The position numbers were made by a program, and so were the translations under genes. Below the pieces are notes generated by a model. The model was given only the letters and a program-made list of their open reading frames with translations. It searched no databases and was not told where the DNA came from. From Scenedesmus sp. PABB004 (Eukaryota): 64,000 nt of DNA. Below, one piece after another: positions 23,238 to 35,277 of the stretch. Position 1 is the first letter of the stretch. Each line of letters begins with the position of its first letter. The stretch lies in contig JABVCE010000009.1 of the NCBI GenBank assembly GCA_014905635.1, positions 1,240,001 to 1,304,000 of the forward strand. Direction: 5' to 3'.

Positions 23238-25742
23238 TCAGCTGAACCACACGTCGCGCTGGTAGCGCCCCGCCGACGCGAGGCCGTCCAGGTAGGCCCG
23301 CGCCGCGCCCGCGTCGGCCCCGCCGCCCGGCAGGCGCGCGGCGATGACCTCCAGCAGCGCCGCCTCCACCGCGCCCGCCATCGCGTTGGCGTCGCCGCAC
23401 ACGTAAAAGTGGCCGCCCTCCTCCAGCGCGGCCCACACCGCGTCGCCCTGCTCGCGCAGGCGCTGCTGCACATACACCTTGGCCGGCCCCGCCCGGCTGA
23501 ACGCGGTGTGCAGCTGAATCGCGCCCGCCTCGGCCCACGCGGTGAGCTGGCCGCCGTACAGGAAGTCCTGGTCGGGGCGGCGGCAGCCAAAGAAGAGCAG
23601 CATGCGCCCCGGCGCGGCGCCGCCCGCGCCGCCGGCGGCGAGGCGGTGCGCGACAAAGGCGCGGAACGGCGCGAGCCCCGTGCCCGGGCCGACCATGACC
23701 AGTGGCGTGGCCGGGTCGGGCGGCAGGCGGAAGTCTGGGTTGCGGCTCACAAACACCGGCAGCACGCCCCCCGCCGCCGTGCGCTCGCCGACCTGGCTCG
23801 ACGCGACGCCGACGCGGGGCGCGCCGAGGCTCTCGTACCGCACGACCGCGATCGTCGCCTGCACGGCCGCGCCGACCGGCGCCGCCTCGAGCGGCGAGCT
23901 GCTGATGGAGTAGAGCCGCGGCGCGAGCGGCCGCAGCGCCGGCAGCAGCTGCGCGAGGTGCGAGGGGGGGGGGGGGGCGCGGCGGGCGGCGGGCGCGCGT
24001 CGGTGGACCGGGCTGGCGCGGCCGGGCGCGCGCGGGCCTCGCGCTGCGCGGCGCGCCGCGCCGCGCCGCGCCGCGCCGCGCCGCGCCGCGCCTGCTCGTG
24101 GTTGAGGCGTGCGGCGTCAAAGTCGGTCAGCACGTCGACCACGTGCCGCGGCGCGAGGTACGCCTCCAGCGCGGCCGCGTCGCCCAGCAGACCCCGCGCC
24201 GCGTCGAGCGCCGCGCGCAGCTTGCAGCCGCCGTCCGGCGCCTGCGCGCCGCCGGGCGCCGCGCCGGCGCCGGCGCCGCCCGTGCTCGCGTCGGCGGTCA
24301 CCTCGATGGACCGCCGCGCGGGGGCGCGCTTGGCGCCCGGGGCCGCCTCCAGCGCCGCCTCGAGCGCGGCCACGAGCGCGGCCAGCAGCGGGGCGGGCTT
24401 GGGCGCGCGGAGGTCGTAGGCCACGCTGAGCGCGTGGCGCAGCGTCAGCGCGCCCTCGCCCGCCGCGCCGGCGGCGGGGACGTGCTCCTGGTCCTCCGCG
24501 TAGTGCCAGGCGGGGCGCGGCACCGGCTCGTCGCCGCGCGCGCGCAGCGCGCCCAGCAGCGCGTCCACGCCGGCCGGCGGGTTGGTCGGCCAGATGCCGA
24601 GTGCGTCGCCGGGCACATAGTCCAGCCCGCCCTCGGCGGCGGCGGCGGGGTCGAGCGCCAGCTCCAGGCGCACCGTGTCCTTGTCGTCGGGGCCGTCCAG
24701 CACGCACAGCCCCTCCACGCCGACCACGCGCGCGTAGTAGGGCCGAGACTTGTTCCACCGCCGCGACGCCGCCGCGGCGGCCGCCGCGGCCGCCTCGCCG
24801 CCGGCGTCGTCGGGCACGCCGCCGCGCTGCGCGTAGCTGGCGAGGCCGAGGCCGGGCAGGCCGGCCAGCACGGCGTCGATCCAGGCGTCCACCACGGGCC
24901 AGTCCTCCTTGTCCACGTCCACGCGCGGCACAAACGCGCCGCCGCCGGCCGCGCCGAGCGCCGCGTCCAGCGCCTTGCCGCACGCCGCAAAGTGCGTGTA
25001 CGAGGTGTCGCCGAGCGCGCACACGCTGTAGCGCAGCCCCCCGAGCTGCCCCGGCCCGCCGGCGGTGAGCCAGTCGCAGAACTCGCGCGCCTCGGTCGGC
25101 GGCACGCCGTCGCCCTGCGTGGAGAAGACCAGCAGCGCCGCCTGCTGCGCCGACAGGTCGAGCCCGCTCGGGTGGTGCGCGGCGTTGGCGAGCGTCGGCC
25201 TGCGGCGCGGCGCGGCGCCCGCGGTCACGGCCTGCGCCGCGCCCTCCGCACAGCGCCGCCGCGGGGCCCGCGCGCTGCGCCGCATGCTGTGTGGTCTGCG
25301 CGCGGCCGCACCAGAACTGCCCGCCCTGCTTGAGCGCGGCGGCCAGCTTCTCCGCGATCTCCCGCGCGAAGCCGTACTCCGTGCCGTACAGCACCAGCAC
25401 CGGCGCCGCGTCGGCGGGGATCACCTCGCGCGGCGGCGCCGGCGCGGCCGCCGCCACTGGCGCCGCTCCGGCGCCGTCGCCGCCCGCGGGGGCGCGCAGG
25501 AAGGCCGCAAAGTCGGTCGCCGCCGGCGCCGGCGGCGCCACGCGGAGGAAGGACTCGAAGCTCGTGGCCGGCGGGCCCGCGGGGCCGGCGGGGCCGGCGG
25601 GCGCCGGCGGCGCGCGCAGGAAGGCATCAAAGTTGGTCGCCGCCGGCGCGCCGGCGCCGCGCGGCCGGGACAGCAGCCACAGCCCGCCCACGCCGGCGAC
25701 GGCCGCGCCGCCCAGCAGCCAGGAGCCGCGCCCGCCCTCCAT
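23238..25742 (-). CDS. Diflavin (FMN/FAD/NADPH) reductase, sulfite-reductase flavoprotein CysJ-like, with N-terminal membrane anchor
   Basis: Flavodoxin LYGTEYGFAREIA, STQGDGVPPTEA, ALGDTSYTHFAACGK; FNR-like RLYSISSS, VGPGTGLAPFRAF, LFFGCR, YVCGDANAM, RYQRDVW. Confidence 0.9.
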
Positions 25743-26214: not shown

Positions 26215-29200
26215 ATGGCCCGGGGCTTCCTGGCGCGCGCGGCGCGCATCATGGGTCCGGCGTTCCTCGTCTCCGTGGCGTACATGGACCCCGGCAACCT
26301 GGGCGCCGCGATCGAGGCGGGCTCGCGCCACGGCTACCAGCTGGTGTGGGTGGTGGTGCTGTCCAACCTGATCGCCATCCTGCTGCAGACGCTGGCGGCG
26401 CGCCTGGGGCTGGTCACGGGCAAGCACCTCGCGCAGGTCTGCCGCGAGGCGTACCCGCCGGCCGTGTGCCTGCTGCTGTGGGTGCTGTGCGAAATCTCAA
26501 TCGTCGCGCTCGACCTCACCATGGTCCTCGGTGAGACCACCCTCCGGACGGGGGCAGACGGGCAGGCGCCGCGCCGCCGTGCTGCCGCCCGGCCGCGCCG
26601 AGCGCTGCCGCCGCGGCGCGCCGCAGGCACCGCGATCGGGCTCAACCTGCTGCTCGGCTGGCGCATGCTGCCCTGCATCCTCCTCACCGGCCTCGACGCG
26701 CTGCTGCTGCTGCTCCTCGTGCCGCGGTGCGCAGCGGCCGCCGCGGGCGCAGCCGGGGGCCGGGGCGCCGCGGCCTGCCCACGCGCGGCGGCGGCGGCGC
26801 GCCCCGCCCGTGCGCGCGCAGGCAGGGCGTGCGCAGCAGCGAGCAGGTGACGGTCGGCCTGCTGGTCATGGTGCTCGGGTGCTTTGCTGTCGACCTGGTG
26901 CTCTCCAAGCCGCCCCTGCGCGCGGTGCTGGGCGGCCTCGTGCCGCGCCTGAGCGCCGACAGCGTCTACGCCGCCGTCTGCCTGCTCGGCGCCAACGTGA
27001 TGCCACACAACTTCTTTTTGGTGCGGGGCGCCACCCCCGCCCAGCAGCAGCACCGGCGGCACCCGCGCGGCGCCGGCCGGCGGGGCGCCGCGCGCCCCCG
27101 CGCGGCGCCCGCGCGCTCACCGCAGCGGCCGCCCCGCTCCTTCCTCCTGCCGCCGCTGCCGCCGCAGCACTCTGCGCTCGTGGCGGGGCAGGCGCGCGGC
27201 GCGGCGAGCACGAGCCTGCGGCGCCTCTGCCTGTACAACTTCCTGGACATCGCCGCGGCGCTGGGGCTCGCGCTCGTGGTCAACGTCGCGGTGCTGCTCG
27301 TCGCCGCGGCGACCTTCCACCAGGCCGGTGCGCCGCCGCCGCGCGGCGCGCCGCGCGCAGCGCGCAGCGCGGGCGGCCGGCGGCGCCCGCGGCAGCCGCC
27401 CGCGGCCGCCGACGCTGTCAAGCCTGCCCACCCGATCACGCCCGCCCGCCCGCGTCAGGCATCGTGGTTGAGACGCTGCAGGCCGCGCACGACCTCATGG
27501 AGCGCATCCTCTCCAGCAGCGCCGCGCCCGCGGCGTTTGGCCTCGCCCTGCTCTGCGCGGGGCAGCTCAGCACCTTCACCGGGACCATCGCGGGGCAGGT
27601 CGTGCTGCGCGGCTTCCTCGGCGTGCGCCTGCCCACGTGGCTGCGCCGCGTTGCGACGCGCGGCGCGGCGGTGCTGCCCGCGGCGCTGCTGCAATACCAC
27701 GGCGGCGACGCGGCGACCTACCGGTGCGGGGCGGGCGCGGCGGCGTCGGGGGTGCCGCCGCCCCGAGCCGCGCCGCGCTGCACCCGCGCCGCGCCGCCGT
27801 TCGCCACCGCTGCGCCTTGCCCCGCGCCCCACGCACGCGCACCCACCCGCCCGCGCGCGCAGGTTCCTGCTGGTCGCGCAGGTGGTGCTCGCGCTGCAGC
27901 TGCCCTTCACGCTCATCCCGCTCATCAAGGCCACCAGCAGCGCCCGCCTCATGGGCAGCCACCGCAGCAGCGCGGCGCTGGCGGCCGCGGCCTGGGCCGC
28001 GAGCGCCCTCGTGTTCACAGCAAACCTGCTGCTCTTCGCCGCGCAGCTCGCGCCCGGCGCGGCGCTCGTGCCGCCCGTCAGCGCCGGCGGTGCGCGCCGC
28101 GGCGTGCGCGGCGCAGCGCAGCGCGCACGGCATGGCGCGGCGCGTCGCCCTCGGCGCGGCGCCGACGCCCCCCGCGCTGCGCCGCCCCGCCCCGCCGCCG
28201 CCGCCGGTGGCCAGGCCCCGACTCTGCCGCGCACCAGTACCTGGACAACCTGGCTGGCCTCGCGTGGGCGCGCCCCGGGCGCTTCCTGCTGCTGCTCGCG
28301 CTGCTGCTGGCGGCGGCGGGGCTGCTCGCGCTGCAGCTGTGGATGCTGCTGACGCCGCTGTCAGACGCCATCGCGCCAGCGCCGCTCATCGTGGCGCACG
28401 GCAACGAGCGCGGCGCGCGCGCGAGCGGCAAGGCCGGCGCCGGCGCCGGCGACGGACGCGCGTCGCGGCACGTGACGCTGGGCTGGAGCGTGCCGGGCGT
28501 GCGCGAGTGGCTGCTGGGCACGCCGGCGGACGACCTCGGCGGCGCGGCGCCGCGGCACGGGCTCGACGAGGCGGTAAGCGGCTGGCCAGGGGGAGGCTGG
28601 CCGGGGGAGAGCGCACGGGGCGCGGGGCGACGGGGGGGGGGGGGAGGGGGGGGCTGGGGCGCGGCGCCGACGGCGCGCGTGGCCGTGCTGCCGCGCAGGT
28701 GGGCTGGCCCAGTGCGCTCGAGCTGGCGGCGCACAGCCGGCCGGCGGCGGTCGCGCACCGCCACCCCGGCCACACCGCGGCGGAGCAGGCCTTTGGCGGT
28801 CGCGGCGCGCAGCAGCAGAGCGGCAGCGAGGCGGGCGAGGCGCAGCCGCTGCTGCCGCTGGAGCCGCAAACGCCCTCGGACAGCGGCGCGGCCGCCTCGG
28901 AGGGGCCTCAAGAGCAGCCGGCGGCGCAGTGCGGCCAGCCGGGCAGCCCCGCCACCGCAAAGCAGGCAGCGGCGCAGGCGGCGGCGCGCGCGCTGGAGCA
29001 GCAGCAGCAGCAGCAGCGCGAGCTGGAGTGCGAGCAGGAGCAGGAGCAGGAGCGAGAGCGGGAGCGGGAGCGGGAGCAGGAGCAGGAGGGGGAGCAGGCG
29101 GGCGCTGCCGCGTCGTGGGATGAGATGGACCTGGACAGCTTCACGCTCAGCGCCCACAGCGCCCACAGCGCCCACGGCGGCCACGGTGGCCTCGGCAGCG

Positions 29201-30713
29201 CGGCGGCGCAGCCGTCGTCGCCGCATGCGAGCAGCGAGGCCGCCAGCTACGCCCAGCTGGGCGCGGACAGGGAGGTCTGGCTGGACGCGTGGCCGGCGGC
29301 CCCTGCGCCGCCCAGCCCGCGCAGCCCCAGCTGGCGCGGCGCCTCGCTGTCGCGCGCCAGCAGCAGCGACGCCAGCAGCCTGAGCGCCCTCACGGGCGCG
29401 TCACAGCAGCAGCGCGCCGCGCGCGCGCCGGCCGCCCCCGCCGGCGGCGCCCGGGCGCTCGCGGCGCGGCCCGGCGCCGCGGCCGGCGCCGCCGGCGGCG
29501 GCGGTCGGAGCGGCGCCGGCAGCGGCGGCAGCAGCAACAGCAGCCTGTCCAAGGGTGGCCGCCGTGCGCTCGCGGCCGGCCTGGACGCGTTTTGGGGGAC
29601 CTATTTTGACAGCCACGGCGGCTGGGTCGGCGACGCGGCGGCGGCGCCGCGCGGCGGCAGCAGCGGCAGCGCGCAGCACGCGCGCAAGCGCCCGCCGCCC
29701 GGCAGCGCGTGCTGCAGATGCGGCGGTGCAGCGGCGGGCGGTGGCGGCGGCGCCCCGGGGCGGGCGTGGTGCTGCAGCTGCGCGATGGCCTTACTGCAGC
29801 ACGTCCAGGACTGCGTGAGCGAGCTGCTGGAGGTGCCGGGCGCGGCGCAGGTGCTCACGCCCGCGAGCGTGCTCGGCGCGCCGCCCGCGCCGGCCGCCGG
29901 CGACGGCGGCGAGCAGCCGGCCGCCACGGCGTGCGGCCTGCTGCTGGCGGACGCGTGGGCCCAGCTGCCGGCGCCGCTGGCGGCGACGCTGCGGTCCGTG
30001 CTGCCAGCGGCGGCGGGCGGGACGCTGATCGACGCGGTGCTCGCCACACGCGCCGACTGGCAGGCAGCGCCCGAGCCGGCGGCCGCGCCGGCGTGCGGCG
30101 CCACTGCACCCGGCATGGGCGCGTCGGCAGCGCTGTGTGCGGCCGCGCCGCGCGTGCTCGCGGGGTGGGGCGCGTGGTGCGTGGTCGTGCTGCTCGTGCT
30201 GGGGAGCTGCGAGGTGAGGCCGGAGCTGTGGGGCCGCATCGCCGCGGTGCTCAACCGCCTGCAGGGCGTGCTCACCGACGTCGCGGGCGGCGGCGGCAGC
30301 GGCAGCGGCGGCAGCGGGAGCGGCGGCGGCAGCGGCGGCGGCGGCGGCGAGCAGCAGCAGCTGTCGGCGCTGCTGCTCGCGCTGCTGCAGCAGCTGGAGG
30401 TCGCGGTGGCGGGCAGGGCGTCGCCGGGGGCGCCGGCGGCCCCGGCGCCGCGTTTGCCAAGGGCAGGGAGATCACTGCGGGCGTGGTCAAGCGCTACCGG
30501 CGCCGCCTCGCAGGCCCCGGCGCCAGCGCCAGCGGCGGCCACCGGCCGCGCCCGCCGCCGGGGCACCGCGCGGCGCTGGCCCTGGTGCTAGGCGGGCTGA
30601 TGGTGGCCGCGCCCCTGATGCTCGGGGGCTGCTGCTCGGGCGCCGGCGGCGGCCTGAGCGGCTGCAGGGCGGCGTGGCTGCGGCGCGGCAGCGCGGTCCT
30701 CCTCGCGCGCTGA
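26215..30713 (+). CDS. EIN2: NRAMP transporter fused to an EIN2-like C-terminal domain; 8 exons (26215-26530, 26627-26726, 26822-27020, 27168-27327, 27459-27723, 27863-28089, 28215-28573, 28699-30713) with a probable 1-nt indel at 30426-30430
   Basis: NRAMP: GPAFLVSVAYMDPGN, GANVMPHNFFL|HS, STFTGTIAGQVVLRGFL, QVVLALQLPFTLIPL. EIN2-type tail: GRRALAAGLDAFWGTYFDSHG, WGAWC..RPELWGRIAAVLNRLQG, LEVAV..AFAKGREITAGVVKRYRRRL. Confidence 0.88.
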
Positions 30714-30956: not shown

Positions 30957-33230
30957 TCAGGTGTCGCTGAAGATGGCGTAGATGTCATCGCCCTCCCCCG
31001 GCAGCGCCACCAGGTCGGCCAGCTCCAGCGCGCCCATCGGGTCGTCCTCGCCGCCGCCCGCGCCGCCGGCGCCGCCGGCCGCGGCCGCGGCGCCCGCGCC
31101 GCCCGGCGGCGACGCGACCGCGGCGGGGTGGCGAGGCCCGGCGTGCTGGCCACGGCGCGCGGCGACGCGCCCGCGCCGCCGCCGGCCCCCGGCGGCGCCT
31201 TGGCTGCGGGGCTGGTCGCGGCGCCGCCCTTGCTGCCCGCGCCCGTCACGCTGCCCAGCTCAGCCGTGCCCGAGCCGGCCGCGGGCACGGCCGGCGCGGC
31301 GGCCGCGCCCCGGGCGCGCCGGCGGCGCCGGCGACGCCGTTGAGCGGCGGCGACCGCGCCGCGGCGACCGCAACCTCCAGCGCCGAGCTGCTGCCGGACG
31401 GCGGCGCGGAGGGCGGGGGCGGCGCGCCGCCGGGGTGCGGCGGCAGCGCCGACGACACGGCCTCCTGGCCCGCCGCGCCCGCGCCGCCCGTGCCCGCCGA
31501 CGCGGGCGTGTGCATGCTGCTGATGGGCGACTCGTGGTACACGCGCGCCAGCGCACCGCCAGGGACGCCCTCCGCATGTGGCGGCGGCGGCGGCGGCACG
31601 TGCTGCCCGTTTGGCAGCTGCGCCGTCGGGGCCGCGGGCGCCGGCGCGGCGGCGGCATCCCACCGGCTGCGGCGGCCGGCGGGCGCCGCGCTGCCGCCGC
31701 CCGGCGCGGCGCCGGCAGGCGGCGCCGGCGCCGGCGCAGCCACCGGCCCCAGGCCGGGCGGCAGCGGCCCCCACGCGGGCAGCTGCGGCGGCGCCGGGCG
31801 GGGCTGCGCTGCGCCGGGGGCTGGCGAGCCCGAGGCGCTGCCCGCCGCGCCCGGCGCCGCCTCGCTGCTGGGGCTCGTGCCCGCGGGCTGCGGCGGCGGC
31901 GGCATCTTGAGGTTGCGCCCGAAGCGCAGCCGGCTGGCGCGGCCGCCGTGGGTGGGGGAGTCGTCCAGGCCGGGCAGCGCCGCGCCGCCCTGCTGCAGCT
32001 GCGGCATGAGGCCAAACAGCGGCAGCCCTGGCGCTGCCGGCGGCGGCGGCGGCGGCTGCGGCTGGGCGTGCGCAAACGCGAGGCCCCCCTGCTGCTGCGG
32101 AGGCGGCTGCTGGGCCTGCTGCTGCGACTGCGACTGCGGCACGCCCACCGGCCACTGCGCTGCGGGATGCTGCTGGGCGTACAGCGGCCAGCCCGCCTGC
32201 TGCGGTTGCTGCGGCTGCTGCACCTGCTGCCCCTGCTGCGCCTGCACCTGATGCGCCTGCACGCCGCCGTGCCAGGGCGGCGGCACGACTGCGGCGGCTG
32301 GCGCCCCAGCGGCAACGGCCGCGACCGCCACCGCCGCCGGCGGCGGCGGCGGCGTGCTGCGGGCCGCAGCAGCCGCCGCCGGCAGCCCGAAGCGCGCGCG
32401 GGGGTCTGACGGGACCGCCGTGCCCGGCGCCGCCGGGGCGCCGGCCGCCGCCGCGGGCTGCGGCGCGGGCGGGGCCGCGCCGCCGCGCAGCGCGTCGGCA
32501 GCAAAGGGGTCGTAGTCGCGGCCGCCGTCAGCGCCCGCGCCCGCGGCAGCCGCCCGCTCGCCCTCTGCGGGGCCGTCCGCCGGCTGCGGGGCGCGCGGCC
32601 ACGGGGGCGGGCGCGGCGGGTAGGGTCGGGCGGGCGGGCCGCGCTGCAGTGCGCCGGCCGGGCGGGCAGCCGCCGCTGCCGCCGCACCCGCTTGGCCGGC
32701 GTGAGCGCGCCCGCCTGCACGTAGCCCAGCGCGCCCGCTGCCGGCGGCGTGGGTGTGCGCGCGCCGCGCCGCTGGTGGTGCTCGCCGCCGCCGCCGCCGG
32801 CCGCGCCGCGCAGCTCCGCCGGCAGCTTTGCCTCGCACGCGTCGACCTGCGCGCCCGTGAGCACGCCCTCTGCGCGCCAGCTCGCGAGCAGCTTGGCCAG
32901 GGCGGGTCCCTCGTCCGCCGGCAGGCCCTCGCCGAGCGCCTCAAACATGCCCGGCAGCAGCGGGCCAAACCGCTCGCCGTACTTGGAGCGGGCCTTGAGC
33001 GCCCGCCGCGCGCCGCGCAGCACCTTGCCCACGCCGTACATCACGTGCAGCCGCGCCAGTCCCGGCGGCGCGTGGCGCAGCGCGCGCTCCATGAGCGCGG
33101 GCGCCGCCTTGTAGCACGTCGCGTGGTCCTCGACCGCGATCGCCGCCAGGCCGTCCAGCGCCGACTTGCTGGCCTTCTTGGCGCACTTTGCCAGCAGCGC
33201 CTTGAACTCGGCCTCCCGCTCCCACACCAT
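30957..33230 (-). CDS. CID (RNA pol II CTD-interacting) domain protein with Pro/Gln-rich tail; two probable 1-nt indels near 31310 and 31127
   Basis: EFKALL..ASKSALDGLAAIAVED..CYK..RLHVMYGVGKVLR..KYGERF..KLLASWRAEGVL; RRSRWD motif; acidic end DDIYAIFSDT*. Confidence 0.72.
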
Positions 33231-33631
33231 GGCTCTCGGGCGATCCGCCGCCGCTGCGCTGCTGCGCCGCCGCTGCTGCGCGCGCCGCCACACTGCTGGT
33301 CGCCGCCGACCAGCGGGGACGCGAGGCGCAAGCCGCAGCTCCGCGGGCACCGCCGCCGGGCGGAGGGCTGTGGCGGACGCCGGCGGCCGGCGGCAGGCAT
33401 CAAAAGTCGCGCGGCCCCGAACCCGCGCTAACAACCGTCGCAGCTGGCCCGCGCCGCCGCAGACCGGCATCGGGTCTCACTTAGCGTGCCCTCGCCGGGC
33501 GGGGCAGCGGCGGCGGCAGCACCCCGCGGCGCACGCCGCTGCGGACGGCGGCGCGTGCCTGCGCCGGCAGCGGGCCAACAGCCTCGCCGGCAGCTGCAGC
33601 CGTTCACCCGTGACCCTCCCAGTCTCCGGCC

Positions 33632-35277
33632 ATGAAGCGGCTGTTCGGCAGCAAGGGCGGCGCCGGCAGCGGCGGCAAGGCGCCGCCCCCGCTGCTAAAC
33701 AAGACGGTGCAGGTCGGCTCCTACCTGGTGCTCTGCGAGGCCCTGCGTGAGTGCCGGGGCCGTGCCCTGCGTGAGTGCCGCAGCGCGGCCAACCGCCAAC
33801 CGCCGGGGCGCCACCCGCGCTGCGCGCAGTCGGCAGCGGGGGCTATGCCGATATCTACTGCGCGAGCGACGTCGCGCGGGCGGGCGCGCGGTATGCGCTC
33901 AAGCACCTCCGCCTCGGCGGCGACGCCGGCATCATCGCGGCGGTGCAGGCGGAGGCCAAGGCGCAGGCGCGGCTGCGAGGCCACGCCAACGTGCTGCGCC
34001 TGCATGCGGTCGCGTTTGCGGGGCCGCGGGGCGGCGAGACGGACGCGTTCTTCCTCATGGACCTCTGCCCCGGCTCCCTGCTCGGCCTGCTCGAGCGACA
34101 CGCGCTGCTCGAGGAGGCGACCGTGCTGCACATCGCGGGCTGCGTCGCGCGCGCGCTCGCGCACATGCACGCCCAGAAGCCGCCCATGGCGCACAGGCGC
34201 GGCGCGCGCGGGCGACGGCGGGCGGGCGGGTGGCTGCCGCCGCGGCGCGCCGCGCCGCGCCGGCTGGCGGCCAACTCGCGCCTGCGCGGCACGCGGCGCT
34301 GGCAGGGACGTGAAAGCCGAGAATGTGCTGATGCTGCCCGACGGCACGTGGGTGCTGTGCGACTATGGGAGCGCCTCGACGCGGTCGGGCGTGCCCGACT
34401 CGCCCGCGGCGCGCGCGGCGGAGGAGGCGGCCATCGCCGCGCACACCACGCCGGCGTACCGGGCGCCGGAGATGTGGGACCTGCTCGCGGCGCAGCCCAT
34501 CGACACAAAGGTCGACATCTGGGTGAGCCTGCGCGCGCGGCCCCTGCGCGCCCCGCGCGTGGCCCCGCCCCGCGTGGTGGCCGTGCCGCGACCGCCGCCG
34601 CCGCCGCGCCGGTCAGGCGCTGGGCGTGCTGCTGTACGTGCTGTGCTACGGCCGGCTGCCCTTCCCCGGGGACAGCAAGCTGGCGGTGCTCAACGGCAAG
34701 TACGACATCCCTGCCACCCCGCCCCGCCACCCGGGGGTGAGCCGCCGCGCCGCGCGCCCGCGTCGCGCCCGCGGCGCCATCGCACCCGCGGCACCCCGCG
34801 CCGCGCCCCGACGCCGCATGCGCCCCCGCCGCCGTCGCCCGCGCCGCGCCGCGCCGCGCGCAGCTGCGCGGCCTCATCCGCACGCTGCTGACGGTGGACC
34901 CGGGTCAGCGGCCGGGCATAGAGGACGTACTCGCACTGCTCAGCGCCGTGTCGGAGGAGATCACGGGGCGCCCGCTGGAGGCGCCGGCGGCGCCCGCGGC
35001 AGCTCCGCCCGCGCGTGCCGCGCCGCGCGCCGCCGCCAGCACGACAGCGGCCCCGCAGCAGGCGCAGCAGCAGTCGCAGCAGCAGGCGCAGCAGCCGCAG
35101 CACCAGCACCAGCAGCAGGCGGCGCAGCAGGCGGCGCAGCAGGCGCAGCAGGCGCAGCAGCAGGCGCAGCAGCCGCAGCAGCCGCAGCAGCCGCAGGCGC
35201 AGCAGCAGCAGCGGCCGCAGCAGCCGCACTCGCAGCAGGACTGGGCGCAGTTCAGCCCGCCGGGCGCGCCGCCGCAG

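What the first reader, a model, noticed from the sequence alone, without database searches (positions are those of the whole stretch)
26281..27175. The EIN2-like protein keeps intact NRAMP metal-binding residues: a candidate transporter-receptor intermediate
Seen: TM1 reads YMDPGN (26281-26298), TM6 reads GANVMPHNFFL|HS, and the transport motif STFTGTIAGQVVLRGFL is canonical. Established: DPGN and the TM6 Met coordinate the metal in NRAMPs. Angiosperm EIN2 typically has DPGK (from memory) and diverged motifs, and its transport activity is not well established. Inference: this protein could be a working Mn/Fe transporter with a cleavable nuclear or RNA-regulatory tail, so the EIN2 tail may first have reported metal status rather than ethylene.
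Basis: partly seen in the sequence, partly recalled or inferred. Interest (0 to 1): 0.8.

Follow-up and report, generated by a model that had tools for sequence, protein, structure and literature searches.

The report
Green-alga EIN2 relative keeps metal site
A green alga's relative of the plant ethylene-signalling protein EIN2 still carries the complete metal-binding pocket of a manganese/iron transporter, as do its counterparts in other green algae and in liverworts, so the membrane half of EIN2 probably handled metals before flowering plants let the pocket decay.

Summary
The + strand gene at 26215-30713 (NCBI 'nramp2', Scenedesmus sp. PABB004) encodes a 12-helix NRAMP domain with YMDPGN (26281-26298) and GANVMPHNFFL|HS split by a 147-nt intron. 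It is fused to a tail carrying all three conserved blocks of the EIN2 C-terminal domain.

Mapped onto DraNramp and E. coli MntH, 11 of 12 metal-site and proton-network positions are intact. It is methionine in every EIN2-type row compared, alga to angiosperm, and glutamate in the bacterial relatives.

The intact pocket is not special to this gene. All 12 chlorophyte rows keep it, as do liverwort, Sphagnum and Selaginella EIN2. Angiosperms (7 of 7) have DPGK or DLGK, and the pocket was lost at least four times.

The NRAMP domain keeps 81% of bacterial-invariant positions, against 73% for working E. coli MntH and 44-54% for angiosperm EIN2. Metal transport, probably with altered proton coupling, is therefore plausible but unproven. 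That the tail reports metal status is speculation.

A Chlamydomonas 'EIN2-like' gene is already named in print, so this is a new member of a known kind.

The parts
26215..30713 (+). Whole gene as deposited (P0001, 'nramp2', 1192 aa): 9 exons at 26215-26530, 26627-26726, 26822-27020, 27168-27327, 27459-27723, 27863-28089, 28215-28573, 28699-30451 and 30514-30713
   Evidence: The tail ORF is 100% identical to P0001. The exon joins reproduce P0001 exactly with GT-AG introns of 96, 95, 147, 131, 139, 125, 125 and 62 nt.
26281..26298 (+). TM1 motif YMDPGN. D25 (26287-26289) corresponds to DraNramp D56 / EcMntH D34. N28 (26296-26298) corresponds to N59 / N37.
26491..26523 (+). TM3 network. E93 (26491-26493) corresponds to E124 and D100 (26512-26514) to D131. 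M103 (26521-26523) sits where DraNramp has E134 and EcMntH has E112.
   Evidence: Alignment to DraNramp; column tables
26988..27020 (+). TM6 motif GANVMPHNFFL. A196 (26991-26993) corresponds to A227, M199 (27000-27002) to M230 and H201 (27006-27008) to H232. The exon ends at 27020.
27021..27167 (+). 147-nt intron (GTGCGGGG...CGCCGCAG) that splits the TM6 motif between L205 and H206
27168..27170 (+). H206, corresponding to DraNramp H237 (TM6b); first codon of exon 4
27569..27619 (+). TM8-9 'consensus transport motif' STFTGTIAGQVVLRGFL
27644..27649 (+). R321 and R322, corresponding to DraNramp R352 and R353 (TM9 salt-bridge arginines)
27879..27881 (+). Q353, corresponding to DraNramp Q378 (TM10)
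28283..28351 (+). 12th hydrophobic helix (FLLLLALLLAAAGLLALQLWMLL). Inferred to place the tail on the same side of the membrane as the N-terminus.
   Evidence: Hydropathy 2.62 over 19 residues; alignable with TM12 of EIN2 and of the bacterial Nramp-Usp fusions
29500..29634 (+). Tail block 1: ...SSLSKGGRRALAAGLDAFWGTYFDSHGGW, matching streptophyte GSLSRLSGLGRAARRQFAxxLDEFWGxLFDxHGQ
   Evidence: Profile of 17 streptophyte rows: E 7.4e-07, the only hit below 0.39 among 761 ORF pieces of the window. Motif table.
30136..30276 (+). Tail block 2: ...WGAWCVVVLLVLGSCEVRPELWGRIAAVLNRLQGVL
   Evidence: Streptophyte profile E 8.3e-12, next-best hit 2.7. phmmer of the tail finds named EIN2 proteins.
30387..30512 (+). 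Tail block 3, the NLS-like end block ...GAAFAKGREITAGVVKRYRRRLAG. It is read in the frame of 30300, not the frame of blocks 1-2, and lies mostly inside the deposited last intron.
   Evidence: Streptophyte profile E 1.4e-04, next-best hit 0.58. 24 of 50 residues identical to the Flechtneria rotunda transcript protein P0008, E 1e-09.
30452..30513 (+). Deposited 62-nt last 'intron'. It is probably a gene-prediction patch for a frame change that lies between 30418 and 30449.
   Evidence: It is the shortest intron and the only one with a GTTTGC donor. It removes a block conserved in orthologs. DNA shown.
30570..30626 (+). C-terminal hydrophobic stretch AALALVLGGLMVAAPLMLG
   Evidence: Hydropathy 2.17. 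Similar C-terminal stretches occur in P0008, P0017 and P0015.

Best explanation
This is the Scenedesmus member of the EIN2 family, the chlorophyte 'EIN2-like' group to which the published Chlamydomonas CrEIN2L belongs.

Shown: a 12-helix NRAMP domain is fused to a long, mostly low-complexity cytosolic tail. The tail carries the three conserved blocks of the EIN2 C-terminal domain, in the same order as in plants. The NRAMP domain keeps the four metal-coordinating positions (Asp, Asn, Ala carbonyl, Met). It also keeps His232, His237, Glu124, Asp131, Arg352, Arg353 and Gln378 (DraNramp numbering).

One position differs. The TM3 glutamate next to the metal site (E134) is methionine. This change marks the whole EIN2 family.

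Inferred: in chlorophytes, and probably in liverworts, the domain still binds and moves Mn2+/Fe2+-type ions by the usual alternating-access cycle. Because E134 belongs to the core of the proton path, proton co-transport and voltage or pH dependence are probably weakened or absent, so it may act as a uniporter-like or slow transporter.

The pocket later decayed independently in several streptophyte lines; angiosperms changed Asn to Lys. What the tail does in an alga is unknown. Its conserved end block matches the plant nuclear-localisation block.
For: Identity of the NRAMP domain:
- Pfam Nramp 353 bits.
- NCBIfam TIGR01197 302.5 bits against a cutoff of 272.5, and MntH NF001923 429.6 bits against a cutoff of 430.
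- DraNramp structures E 9e-72.
- E. coli MntH 39% identity, E 3e-72.

Residues:
- 11 of 12 key columns are identical to DraNramp and EcMntH.
- All 12 of 12 chlorophyte rows show the same pattern.

Constraint:
- The window protein keeps 95 of 118 bacterial-invariant columns. Working EcMntH keeps 83 of 114, Marchantia 89 of 117 and Amborella 64 of 118.
- Chlorophyte branches in the tree are short. The angiosperm stem is 1.24 and Spirogloea 2.4 changes per column.

Family membership:
- The E134 column is M in 33 of 33 EIN2-type rows and E in 14 of 14 bacterial rows, with one change on the tree.
- Across all proteins fetched it is M in 87 of 91 filled tail-bearing rows and never E. It is E in 195 of 199 tail-less rows, and the 4 M rows are truncated chlorophyte orthologs.
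- The tail alone finds 57 proteins at E <= 1e-3 among 1.84 billion. These include Spirogloea SmuEIN2 (2.6e-10), Selaginella EIN2-like (7.6e-08), and Heracleum, Asimina and Amborella EIN2 (3e-06 to 3.4e-04).
- Three streptophyte block profiles each hit once, in order.

Literature on E134:
- DraNramp E134 mutants lose proton uniport and metal-stimulated H+ transport and have less voltage dependence, but still move metal (passages of PMC6888756).
- A canonical Nramp lacking most of the proton path transports Mn2+ well without protons (abstract and passages of bioRxiv 10.64898/2026.01.27.701978).
Against: - No transport, binding or expression data exist for this protein, and no sequencing run was listed.
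- The E134 glutamate is described as conserved across canonical Nramps and as contacting Mn2+ directly in BfraNramp. Mutations at the equivalent E. coli MntH residue are cited as abrogating Mn2+ transport (passage of PMC6888756). Met here could therefore cripple transport rather than merely uncouple it.
- In moss, the EIN2 C-terminal domain without the membrane domain restored an ABA reporter response, so signalling need not use the pocket.
- A viable Chlamydomonas mutant carries a ~12.5-kb deletion 'affecting' Cre07.g315200/NRM3 (passage of PMC3772215), so the gene is not essential in the laboratory.
- The window's gene needs a frame change near 30418-30449 to read its conserved end block. 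If that is real rather than an assembly error, this copy has a damaged tail.
- No canonical eukaryotic NRAMPs could be fetched, so their position relative to the EIN2-type group was not tested.
Confidence: 0.6

Rival explanations
1. The NRAMP domain no longer transports anything. As proposed for angiosperm EIN2, it is a membrane anchor and docking platform that holds the tail. The pocket residues persist because they stabilise the fold or bind a metal statically.
For: The family-wide loss of the E134 glutamate. E. coli MntH mutants at this residue are cited as transport-dead. In rice the Nramp-like domain is a binding site for the stabiliser MHZ3, and its function 'has long been unknown' (passages of PMC5877927). 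The moss C-terminal domain works without the membrane domain in one assay.
Against: A mere anchor is free to drift, and the lineages that changed the pocket did drift: angiosperms keep only 44-54% of bacterial-invariant columns and Spirogloea 59-60%. Chlorophytes keep 79-85%, more than working EcMntH at 73%. All 11 other key residues are kept in 12 of 12 chlorophyte rows, spanning Picocystis, Tetraselmis, Volvocales and Sphaeropleales. The partial Ostreobium row, left out of that count, also keeps every position it covers.
Confidence: 0.27
2. One reading: the protein is a transceptor. Metal occupancy or flux through the pocket controls cleavage or release of the tail, which then carries a metal-status signal to the nucleus or to mRNAs. 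Ethylene signalling later took this over.
For: An intact pocket co-occurs with conserved tail blocks in chlorophytes. These include the block next to the plant phospho/cleavage region (SLSK...LDAFWG) and the NLS-like block. The nearest tail-less relatives, bacterial Nramp-Usp fusions, also join a transporter to a cytosolic domain.
Against: No data on cleavage, localisation or metal response. The Ser-rich block is only partly conserved, with a 3-residue gap against streptophytes. A C-terminal hydrophobic stretch could keep the tail membrane-bound at both ends. Co-occurrence of two conserved halves does not show that they communicate.
Confidence: 0.1
3. Artefact: the fusion or the gene is not real, being either a chimeric gene model or a decaying pseudogene in this assembly.
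For: The conserved end block is out of frame with the rest of the tail, and the deposited model skips it with an atypical 62-nt intron. No reads could be laid.
Against: Transcript-derived proteins of other chlorophytes carry the NRAMP domain and the tail blocks in one ORF: Tetraselmis astigmatica P0007, MMETSP P0005, Flechtneria rotunda P0008. The other eight exons are open and reproduce a protein 82% identical to Tetradesmus over the NRAMP domain. A single-base indel in G/C runs of a 78.7% GC assembly is the simpler reading.
Confidence: 0.03

Closest known systems
Chlamydomonas reinhardtii EIN2-like (CrEIN2L, Cre07.g315200, also labelled NRM3)
   Same: It belongs to the same chlorophyte group. 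The Chlamydomonas protein P0002 (XP_001700793.1) is 72% identical over the NRAMP domain, with the same 12 key-column states and the RPELWG..LNRLQG block. The name CrEIN2L appears in the Fig. 4 legend of PMC12290401. NRM3 appears in a passage of PMC3772215.
   Different: I could not cross-check that P0002 is Cre07.g315200. The paper uses CrEIN2L only as an outgroup, and the passages I saw say nothing about its pocket. The Scenedesmus tail is far more Ala/Gly-rich and has the unresolved frame change.
Liverwort, Sphagnum and Selaginella EIN2 (e.g. Marchantia paleacea P0015, Riccia, Calypogeia, Selaginella 'EIN2-like' P0240)
   Same: DPGN and A..MPH are intact, Met sits at the E134 position, and all three tail blocks are present.
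   Different: R352 is His in embryophytes but Arg in the alga. These rows keep fewer bacterial-invariant columns (64-78% against 81%). Their tails are longer (1250-1560 aa proteins) and better conserved.
Angiosperm EIN2 (Amborella P0277, Asimina P0276, Heracleum P0253, barley cluster of P0248)
   Same: The architecture is the same, with Met at the E134 position. The tail blocks are recognisably homologous, E 3e-06 to 3.4e-04 from the alga's tail alone.
   Different: The pocket Asn is Lys in 7 of 7 rows. The Met is variable (M, L, T) and monocot-type sequences read DLGK and M/I-A-H. Only 30-35% identity to the alga's NRAMP domain and 44-54% of invariant columns kept. The role in ethylene signalling is established only for these proteins.
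Bacterial clade-A Nramps: Deinococcus radiodurans DraNramp (PDB 8E6N, 6D91, 5KTE...) and E. coli MntH
   Same: LeuT-fold Nramp domain, with 11 of 12 key positions identical. 39% identity to EcMntH.
   Different: They have Glu at E134/E112 and 11 helices, with no 12th helix and no tail.
Bacterial Nramp-Usp fusion transporters ('manganese transport protein', about 600-700 aa)
   Same: They are the nearest tail-less relatives found (47-52% identity, about 400 bits). They share a 12th helix followed by a cytosolic domain.
   Different: Their C-terminal domain is a universal stress protein domain, not an EIN2 tail. They keep Glu at E134 (195 of 199 tail-less rows).
Bacteroides fragilis BfraNramp (clade B, proton-independent)
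   Same: It is a precedent that a canonical DPGN/MPH Nramp with an incomplete proton path still imports Mn2+ efficiently.
   Different: BfraNramp lacks the TM3/TM9 charged network but keeps the E134-equivalent Glu. The alga has the opposite pattern.

Membership tests
Canonical NRAMP / SLC11 divalent metal transporters | Nramp domain above curated family thresholds | tested here: met
   PF01566 353.1 bits against a cutoff of 29.8. TIGR01197 302.5 against 272.5, NF037982 128.5 against 50, and NF001923 (MntH) 429.6 against 430, just under.
Canonical NRAMP / SLC11 divalent metal transporters | TM1 DPGN and TM6 A-x-x-M-P-H metal-binding motifs | tested here: met
   D25, N28, A196, M199 and H201. 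The motif definition is from passages of PMC6888756.
Canonical NRAMP / SLC11 divalent metal transporters | TM3/TM6/TM9 proton network: E124, D131, E134, H232, R352, R353 | tested here: not met
   Five of six are present. E134 is Met103, codon 26521-26523. E134 is described as conserved across canonical Nramps.
Canonical NRAMP / SLC11 divalent metal transporters | Measured transition-metal transport | not testable with these tools
   Needs yeast complementation or proteoliposome assays.
EIN2 family (Viridiplantae) | N-terminal Nramp-like domain with 12 helices followed by a long hydrophilic C-terminal region | tested here: met
   The architecture is described in PMC5877927.
EIN2 family (Viridiplantae) | Conserved C-terminal-domain blocks 1 (LDxFWG..DxHG) and 2 (RPELWG..LNRLQG) | tested here: met
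   Streptophyte profiles give E 7.4e-07 and 8.3e-12. phmmer from the tail reaches named EIN2 proteins.
EIN2 family (Viridiplantae) | C-terminal NLS-like block (FPKGKENLASVLKRYKRRL) | tested here: inconclusive
   It is present in the DNA at 30387-30512 (E 1.4e-04) but in another frame, and it is excluded from the deposited protein.
EIN2 family (Viridiplantae) | Met in place of the Nramp TM3 Glu (a marker derived here, not a published criterion) | tested here: met
   33 of 33 EIN2-type rows against 0 of 14 bacterial rows. 87 of 91 filled tail-bearing rows.
EIN2 family (Viridiplantae) | Groups with streptophyte EIN2 in a tree of the Nramp domain | tested here: inconclusive
   EIN2-type rows are split from 14 bacterial rows with SH-aLRT 99. 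No canonical eukaryotic NRAMPs could be included.
EIN2 family (Viridiplantae) | Acts in ethylene signalling (CTR1 phosphorylation, cleavage, nuclear or P-body action of the tail) | not testable with these tools
   No functional data for any chlorophyte member were found in the searches.

The most novel reading that the evidence does not exclude
EIN2 began, before chlorophytes and streptophytes split, as a working Nramp metal transporter or transceptor whose signature is a methionine in place of the family's universal TM3 glutamate. This would give a second thioether beside the metal site and a broken proton relay. Chlorophyte and liverwort members would still work this way, with the conserved tail (NLS-like block included) relaying metal status. 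Ethylene signalling later captured the tail, after which the pocket decayed at least four separate times.
Probability: 0.2. Interest if true: 0.8.

Novelty: new member of a known kind. Interest (0 to 1): 0.5.

Why it matters
What the Nramp-like half of EIN2 does is an open question; a 2018 paper says its function 'has long been unknown'.

The comparison here points to where an answer can be sought. Chlorophyte and liverwort EIN2 proteins keep the whole metal pocket, so they can be tested for transport. Angiosperm EIN2 carries a Lys where the pocket needs Asn.

It also yields a one-residue marker, Glu->Met in TM3, that separates every EIN2-type domain compared here from ordinary Nramps. That residue is an obvious target for mutagenesis.

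Finally, a 2023 review and a 2024 preprint state that chlorophytes lack EIN2 or its signalling domain. Tail-bearing orthologs nevertheless occur across Chlorophyta.

Tried and rejected
No model was made, so the position of Met103 relative to the pocket rests on homology with DraNramp alone.
- No whole genome is held for this window. I therefore could not ask whether the alga also has ordinary NRAMP paralogs.
- Sequencing runs: none was listed. Expression, splice junctions and the frame change at 30418-30449 remain unchecked.
- My first tail search by shared words found only the protein itself, because low-complexity words crowded out relatives. The word-free search then worked.
- The protein atlas gave no usable hit for the tail. 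Pfam has no model for the EIN2 tail.
- Earlier scan notes held nothing on EIN2.
- Literature searches that found nothing: EIN2+DPGN gave 0 papers and RET1+NRAMP1+Chlamydomonas gave 0. My recollection that the Chlamydomonas gene was once called RET1 is unconfirmed. EIN2+Slc11 gave 2 irrelevant papers.
- The PDB hit 'Tet4 Variant' at residues 1071-1111 falls on a Gly/Ser run, and I treat it as compositional.
- Rejected: that the motifs are chance or a mis-joined frame. The exons tile the Pfam profile in order.
- Rejected: that the pocket is unique to this alga.
Full report
**What is there.** The window is 78.7% G+C. The tail ORF is 100% identical to an NCBI protein named 'nramp2 [Scenedesmus sp. 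PABB004]', P0001, 1192 aa.
- YMDPGN at 26281-26298.
- GANVMPHNFFL ending at 27020, then a GT...AG intron of 147 nt, then HS from 27168.
- STFTGTIAGQVVLRGFL at 27569-27619.

The five N-terminal exon pieces match Pfam Nramp one after another along the profile. Nine exons with GT-AG introns reproduce P0001 letter for letter.

**The membrane domain.** The best solved relatives are Deinococcus radiodurans MntH (DraNramp) structures at E 9e-72. Next come a plant aluminium-transporting relative, ScaDMT/EcoDMT-type bacterial proteins and human NRAMP2 and NRAMP1. NCBIfam's MntH model scores 429.6 bits against a cutoff of 430, and the general Nramp models pass. E. coli MntH, taken from the K-12 record, is 39% identical at E 3e-72.

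I mapped DraNramp residue names, as used in PMC6888756 (passages), through the printed alignment. The offset fits at all positions. I checked the same columns against E. coli MntH and obtained D34, N37, E102, D109, E112, A206, M209, H211, H216, R327, R328 and Q353.

The algal protein has D25, N28, E93, D100, A196, M199, H201, H206, R321, R322 and Q353 at these columns. The twelfth, E134/E112, is Met103, codon ATG 26521-26523.

**Comparison across the family.** A search restricted to long proteins returned several groups:
- Chlamydomonas (72% identity), Pleodorina and Volvox proteins, and algal transcript proteins.
- 1350-1560-aa proteins of liverworts, mosses and a lycophyte (48-57%).
- Spirogloea proteins (39-40%).
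- Many bacterial Nramp-Usp fusions.

The search for shorter proteins gave truncated Tetradesmus, Monoraphidium and Tetraselmis orthologs, then again bacterial Nramp-Usp fusions. No ordinary eukaryotic NRAMP appeared among the 120 listed of 598 hits. Source names place further orthologs in Tetraselmis astigmatica, Flechtneria rotunda, Picocystis salinarum, Ostreobium quekettii and Tetrabaena socialis.

For the residue table I chose 47 of the 283 proteins then held:
- 12 chlorophyte rows.
- 14 non-angiosperm streptophyte rows.
- 7 angiosperm-type rows, six of them named.
- 14 bacterial rows picked for names and spread.

I left out three partial rows that lack TM1 (P0008, P0009, P0017) and near-duplicate Sphagnum and Riccia rows.

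The results:
- The four metal ligand positions read D-N-A-M in 33 of 47 rows: all 14 bacteria, all 12 chlorophytes and 7 streptophytes (Riccia, Marchantia paleacea, Calypogeia, three Sphagnum, Selaginella).
- They are changed in Spirogloea (N/S-A-L-L), Ceratodon (M->V), Diphasiastrum (M->A), two unnamed rows sister to angiosperms (N->K) and all 7 angiosperm-type rows (N->K, with the Met M, L or T).
- The tree needs at least 4 changes of this state.
- The E134 column is M in 33 of 33 EIN2-type rows and E in 14 of 14 bacterial rows, a single change on the tree.

I repeated the count over every protein fetched (337, of which 305 have an Nramp domain). Of 106 tail-bearing proteins, 91 have a residue at the E134 column: M in 87, T in 2, S in 1, L in 1 and E in none. 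Of 199 tail-less proteins, E is found in 195 and M in 4, and those four are truncated chlorophyte orthologs. That set contains near-duplicates (for example many Musa entries), so the numbers count sequences, not events.

**Degree of constraint.** The 14 bacterial rows are invariant at 118 columns. The share of these columns kept is:
- The algal protein: 95 (81%).
- Other chlorophytes: 79-85%.
- Bryophytes and lycophytes: 64-78%.
- Spirogloea: 59-60%.
- Angiosperm rows: 44-54%.
- E. coli MntH, a working transporter of another clade: 83 of 114 (73%).

In the tree (quick IQ-TREE, SH-aLRT only), EIN2-type rows are split from the bacterial rows with support 99. Relationships inside largely follow organismal groups. 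The angiosperm stem (1.24) and Spirogloea (2.4) are long, while chlorophyte branches are short. The tree holds no ordinary eukaryotic NRAMP, because none could be fetched.

**The tail.** A word-free search of 1.84 billion representatives with 295 residues of the tail (29533-30417) gave 57 proteins at E <= 1e-3. Those that I looked up are:
- EIN2 of Amborella, Asimina, Heracleum and Andrographis.
- A Rumex protein and a Musa cluster named ETHYLENE-INSENSITIVE 2.
- A barley EIN2 cluster.
- Selaginella 'EIN2-like'.
- The Spirogloea protein that PMC12290401 calls SmuEIN2.

I built profiles from three conserved blocks of 17-18 streptophyte tails. Each finds exactly one significant match among 761 six-frame ORF pieces of the whole window, in the right order:
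- 29500-29634, E 7.4e-07.
- 30136-30276, E 8.3e-12.
- 30387-30512, E 1.4e-04.

The next-best hits have E of 0.39 or more.

The third block (AFAKGREITAGVVKRYRRRL) corresponds to the plant end block that a rice paper places at the nuclear localisation signal. It lies in a different frame from the first two and largely inside the deposited 62-nt last intron. That intron is the shortest and the only one with a GTTTGC donor. Orthologous transcript proteins read straight through this block. The frame must therefore change between 30418 and 30449, a stretch of G and C runs. This is most simply an assembly indel, but it could not be checked.

**Literature.**
- A 2023 review states that EIN2 homologs appear absent from chlorophytes (passage).
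- A 2024 preprint finds the EIN2 signalling domain absent in most chlorophyte lineages (passage).
- A Draparnaldia genome preprint lists only CTR1 (passage).
- A 2025 paper uses 'Chlamydomonas reinhardtii EIN2-like (CrEIN2L, Cre07.g315200)' as an outgroup. It reports that the C-terminal domains of moss, Arabidopsis and Chara EIN2 restore an ABA reporter response without the membrane domain (section 7).
- The same locus is labelled NRM3 and lies in a deletion of a viable mutant (passage).

I found no paper that discusses the pocket residues of non-angiosperm EIN2 or the Glu->Met change. Subscription journals are not covered, and the supplement of PMC12290401 was not seen.

**How it most likely works.** Shown: the protein is an EIN2-family member whose Nramp domain has a complete metal pocket and five of six proton-network residues.

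Established elsewhere:
- D56 and N59 are needed for Mn2+ transport, and M230 favours transition metals.
- E134, with D56, H232 and D131, forms the core of the proton path.
- DraNramp E134 mutants lose proton uniport and metal-evoked proton transport and show weaker voltage dependence, yet still carry metal. E. coli MntH mutants at this residue are reported dead.
- A canonical Nramp without most of the proton path imports Mn2+ well, and there the E134-equivalent Glu touches the metal.

Inferred: the chlorophyte domain still binds and moves Mn2+/Fe2+-type ions, with proton coupling weakened or lost. The Asn->Lys change in angiosperms would abolish this. I put about 0.6 on this package, with identity near certain and transport about even.

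**Verdict.** The gene is an ordinary member of a family-wide pattern rather than a lone intermediate, and its Nramp domain is not fully canonical. The pattern itself is of moderate interest because it makes the old question of the EIN2 membrane domain testable. That pattern is an intact pocket in chlorophytes and some bryophytes and lycophytes, repeated decay elsewhere, and a universal Glu->Met marker.

Noticed in passing
window 30418-30513: The deposited last intron (30452-30513, 62 nt, GTTTGC donor) hides the conserved NLS-like block AFAKGREITAGVVKRYRRRL. Reading that block needs a frame change between 30418 and 30449, in G/C runs. This is either an assembly indel or a real frameshift.
   Followed up: partly
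window 30570-30626: A hydrophobic stretch (AALALVLGGLMVAAPLMLG) follows the NLS-like block at the very C-terminus. Similar C-terminal stretches occur in the Flechtneria, Ostreobium and Marchantia paleacea proteins. It may be a tail anchor that would tether the tail at both ends.
   Followed up: no
proteins P0023-P0107 and P0114-P0230 (bacterial): The nearest tail-less relatives of the EIN2-type Nramp domain are bacterial Nramp-Usp fusions (47-52% identity). These also have a 12th helix followed by a cytosolic domain. The ordinary eukaryotic NRAMPs among the solved structures score lower.
   Followed up: partly
alignment column of window 27644-27646 (R321): The first TM9 arginine (DraNramp R352) is no longer Arg in any embryophyte EIN2 row compared (His in most). 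It remains Arg in chlorophytes and Spirogloea. This is one change on the tree and a second lineage marker.
   Followed up: partly
window 23238-25420 (-), ~32900-33290 (-), 33775-34300 (+): The neighbours are ordinary eukaryotic genes: a diflavin reductase (flavodoxin, FAD and NAD domains) divergent from the EIN2-like gene, a CID-domain protein and a protein kinase.
   Followed up: partly
literature versus proteins P0002-P0017, P0265: A review and a preprint state that chlorophytes lack EIN2 or its signalling domain. Proteins bearing both the Nramp domain and the tail occur in Picocystis, Tetraselmis, Ostreobium, Volvocales and Sphaeropleales.
   Followed up: partly
window 28900-29100: The tail contains a long Gln/Glu/Arg low-complexity run (QQQQQRELECEQEQEQEREREREREQEQEGEQ) and Gly/Ser runs. 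These attract spurious database hits.
   Followed up: no
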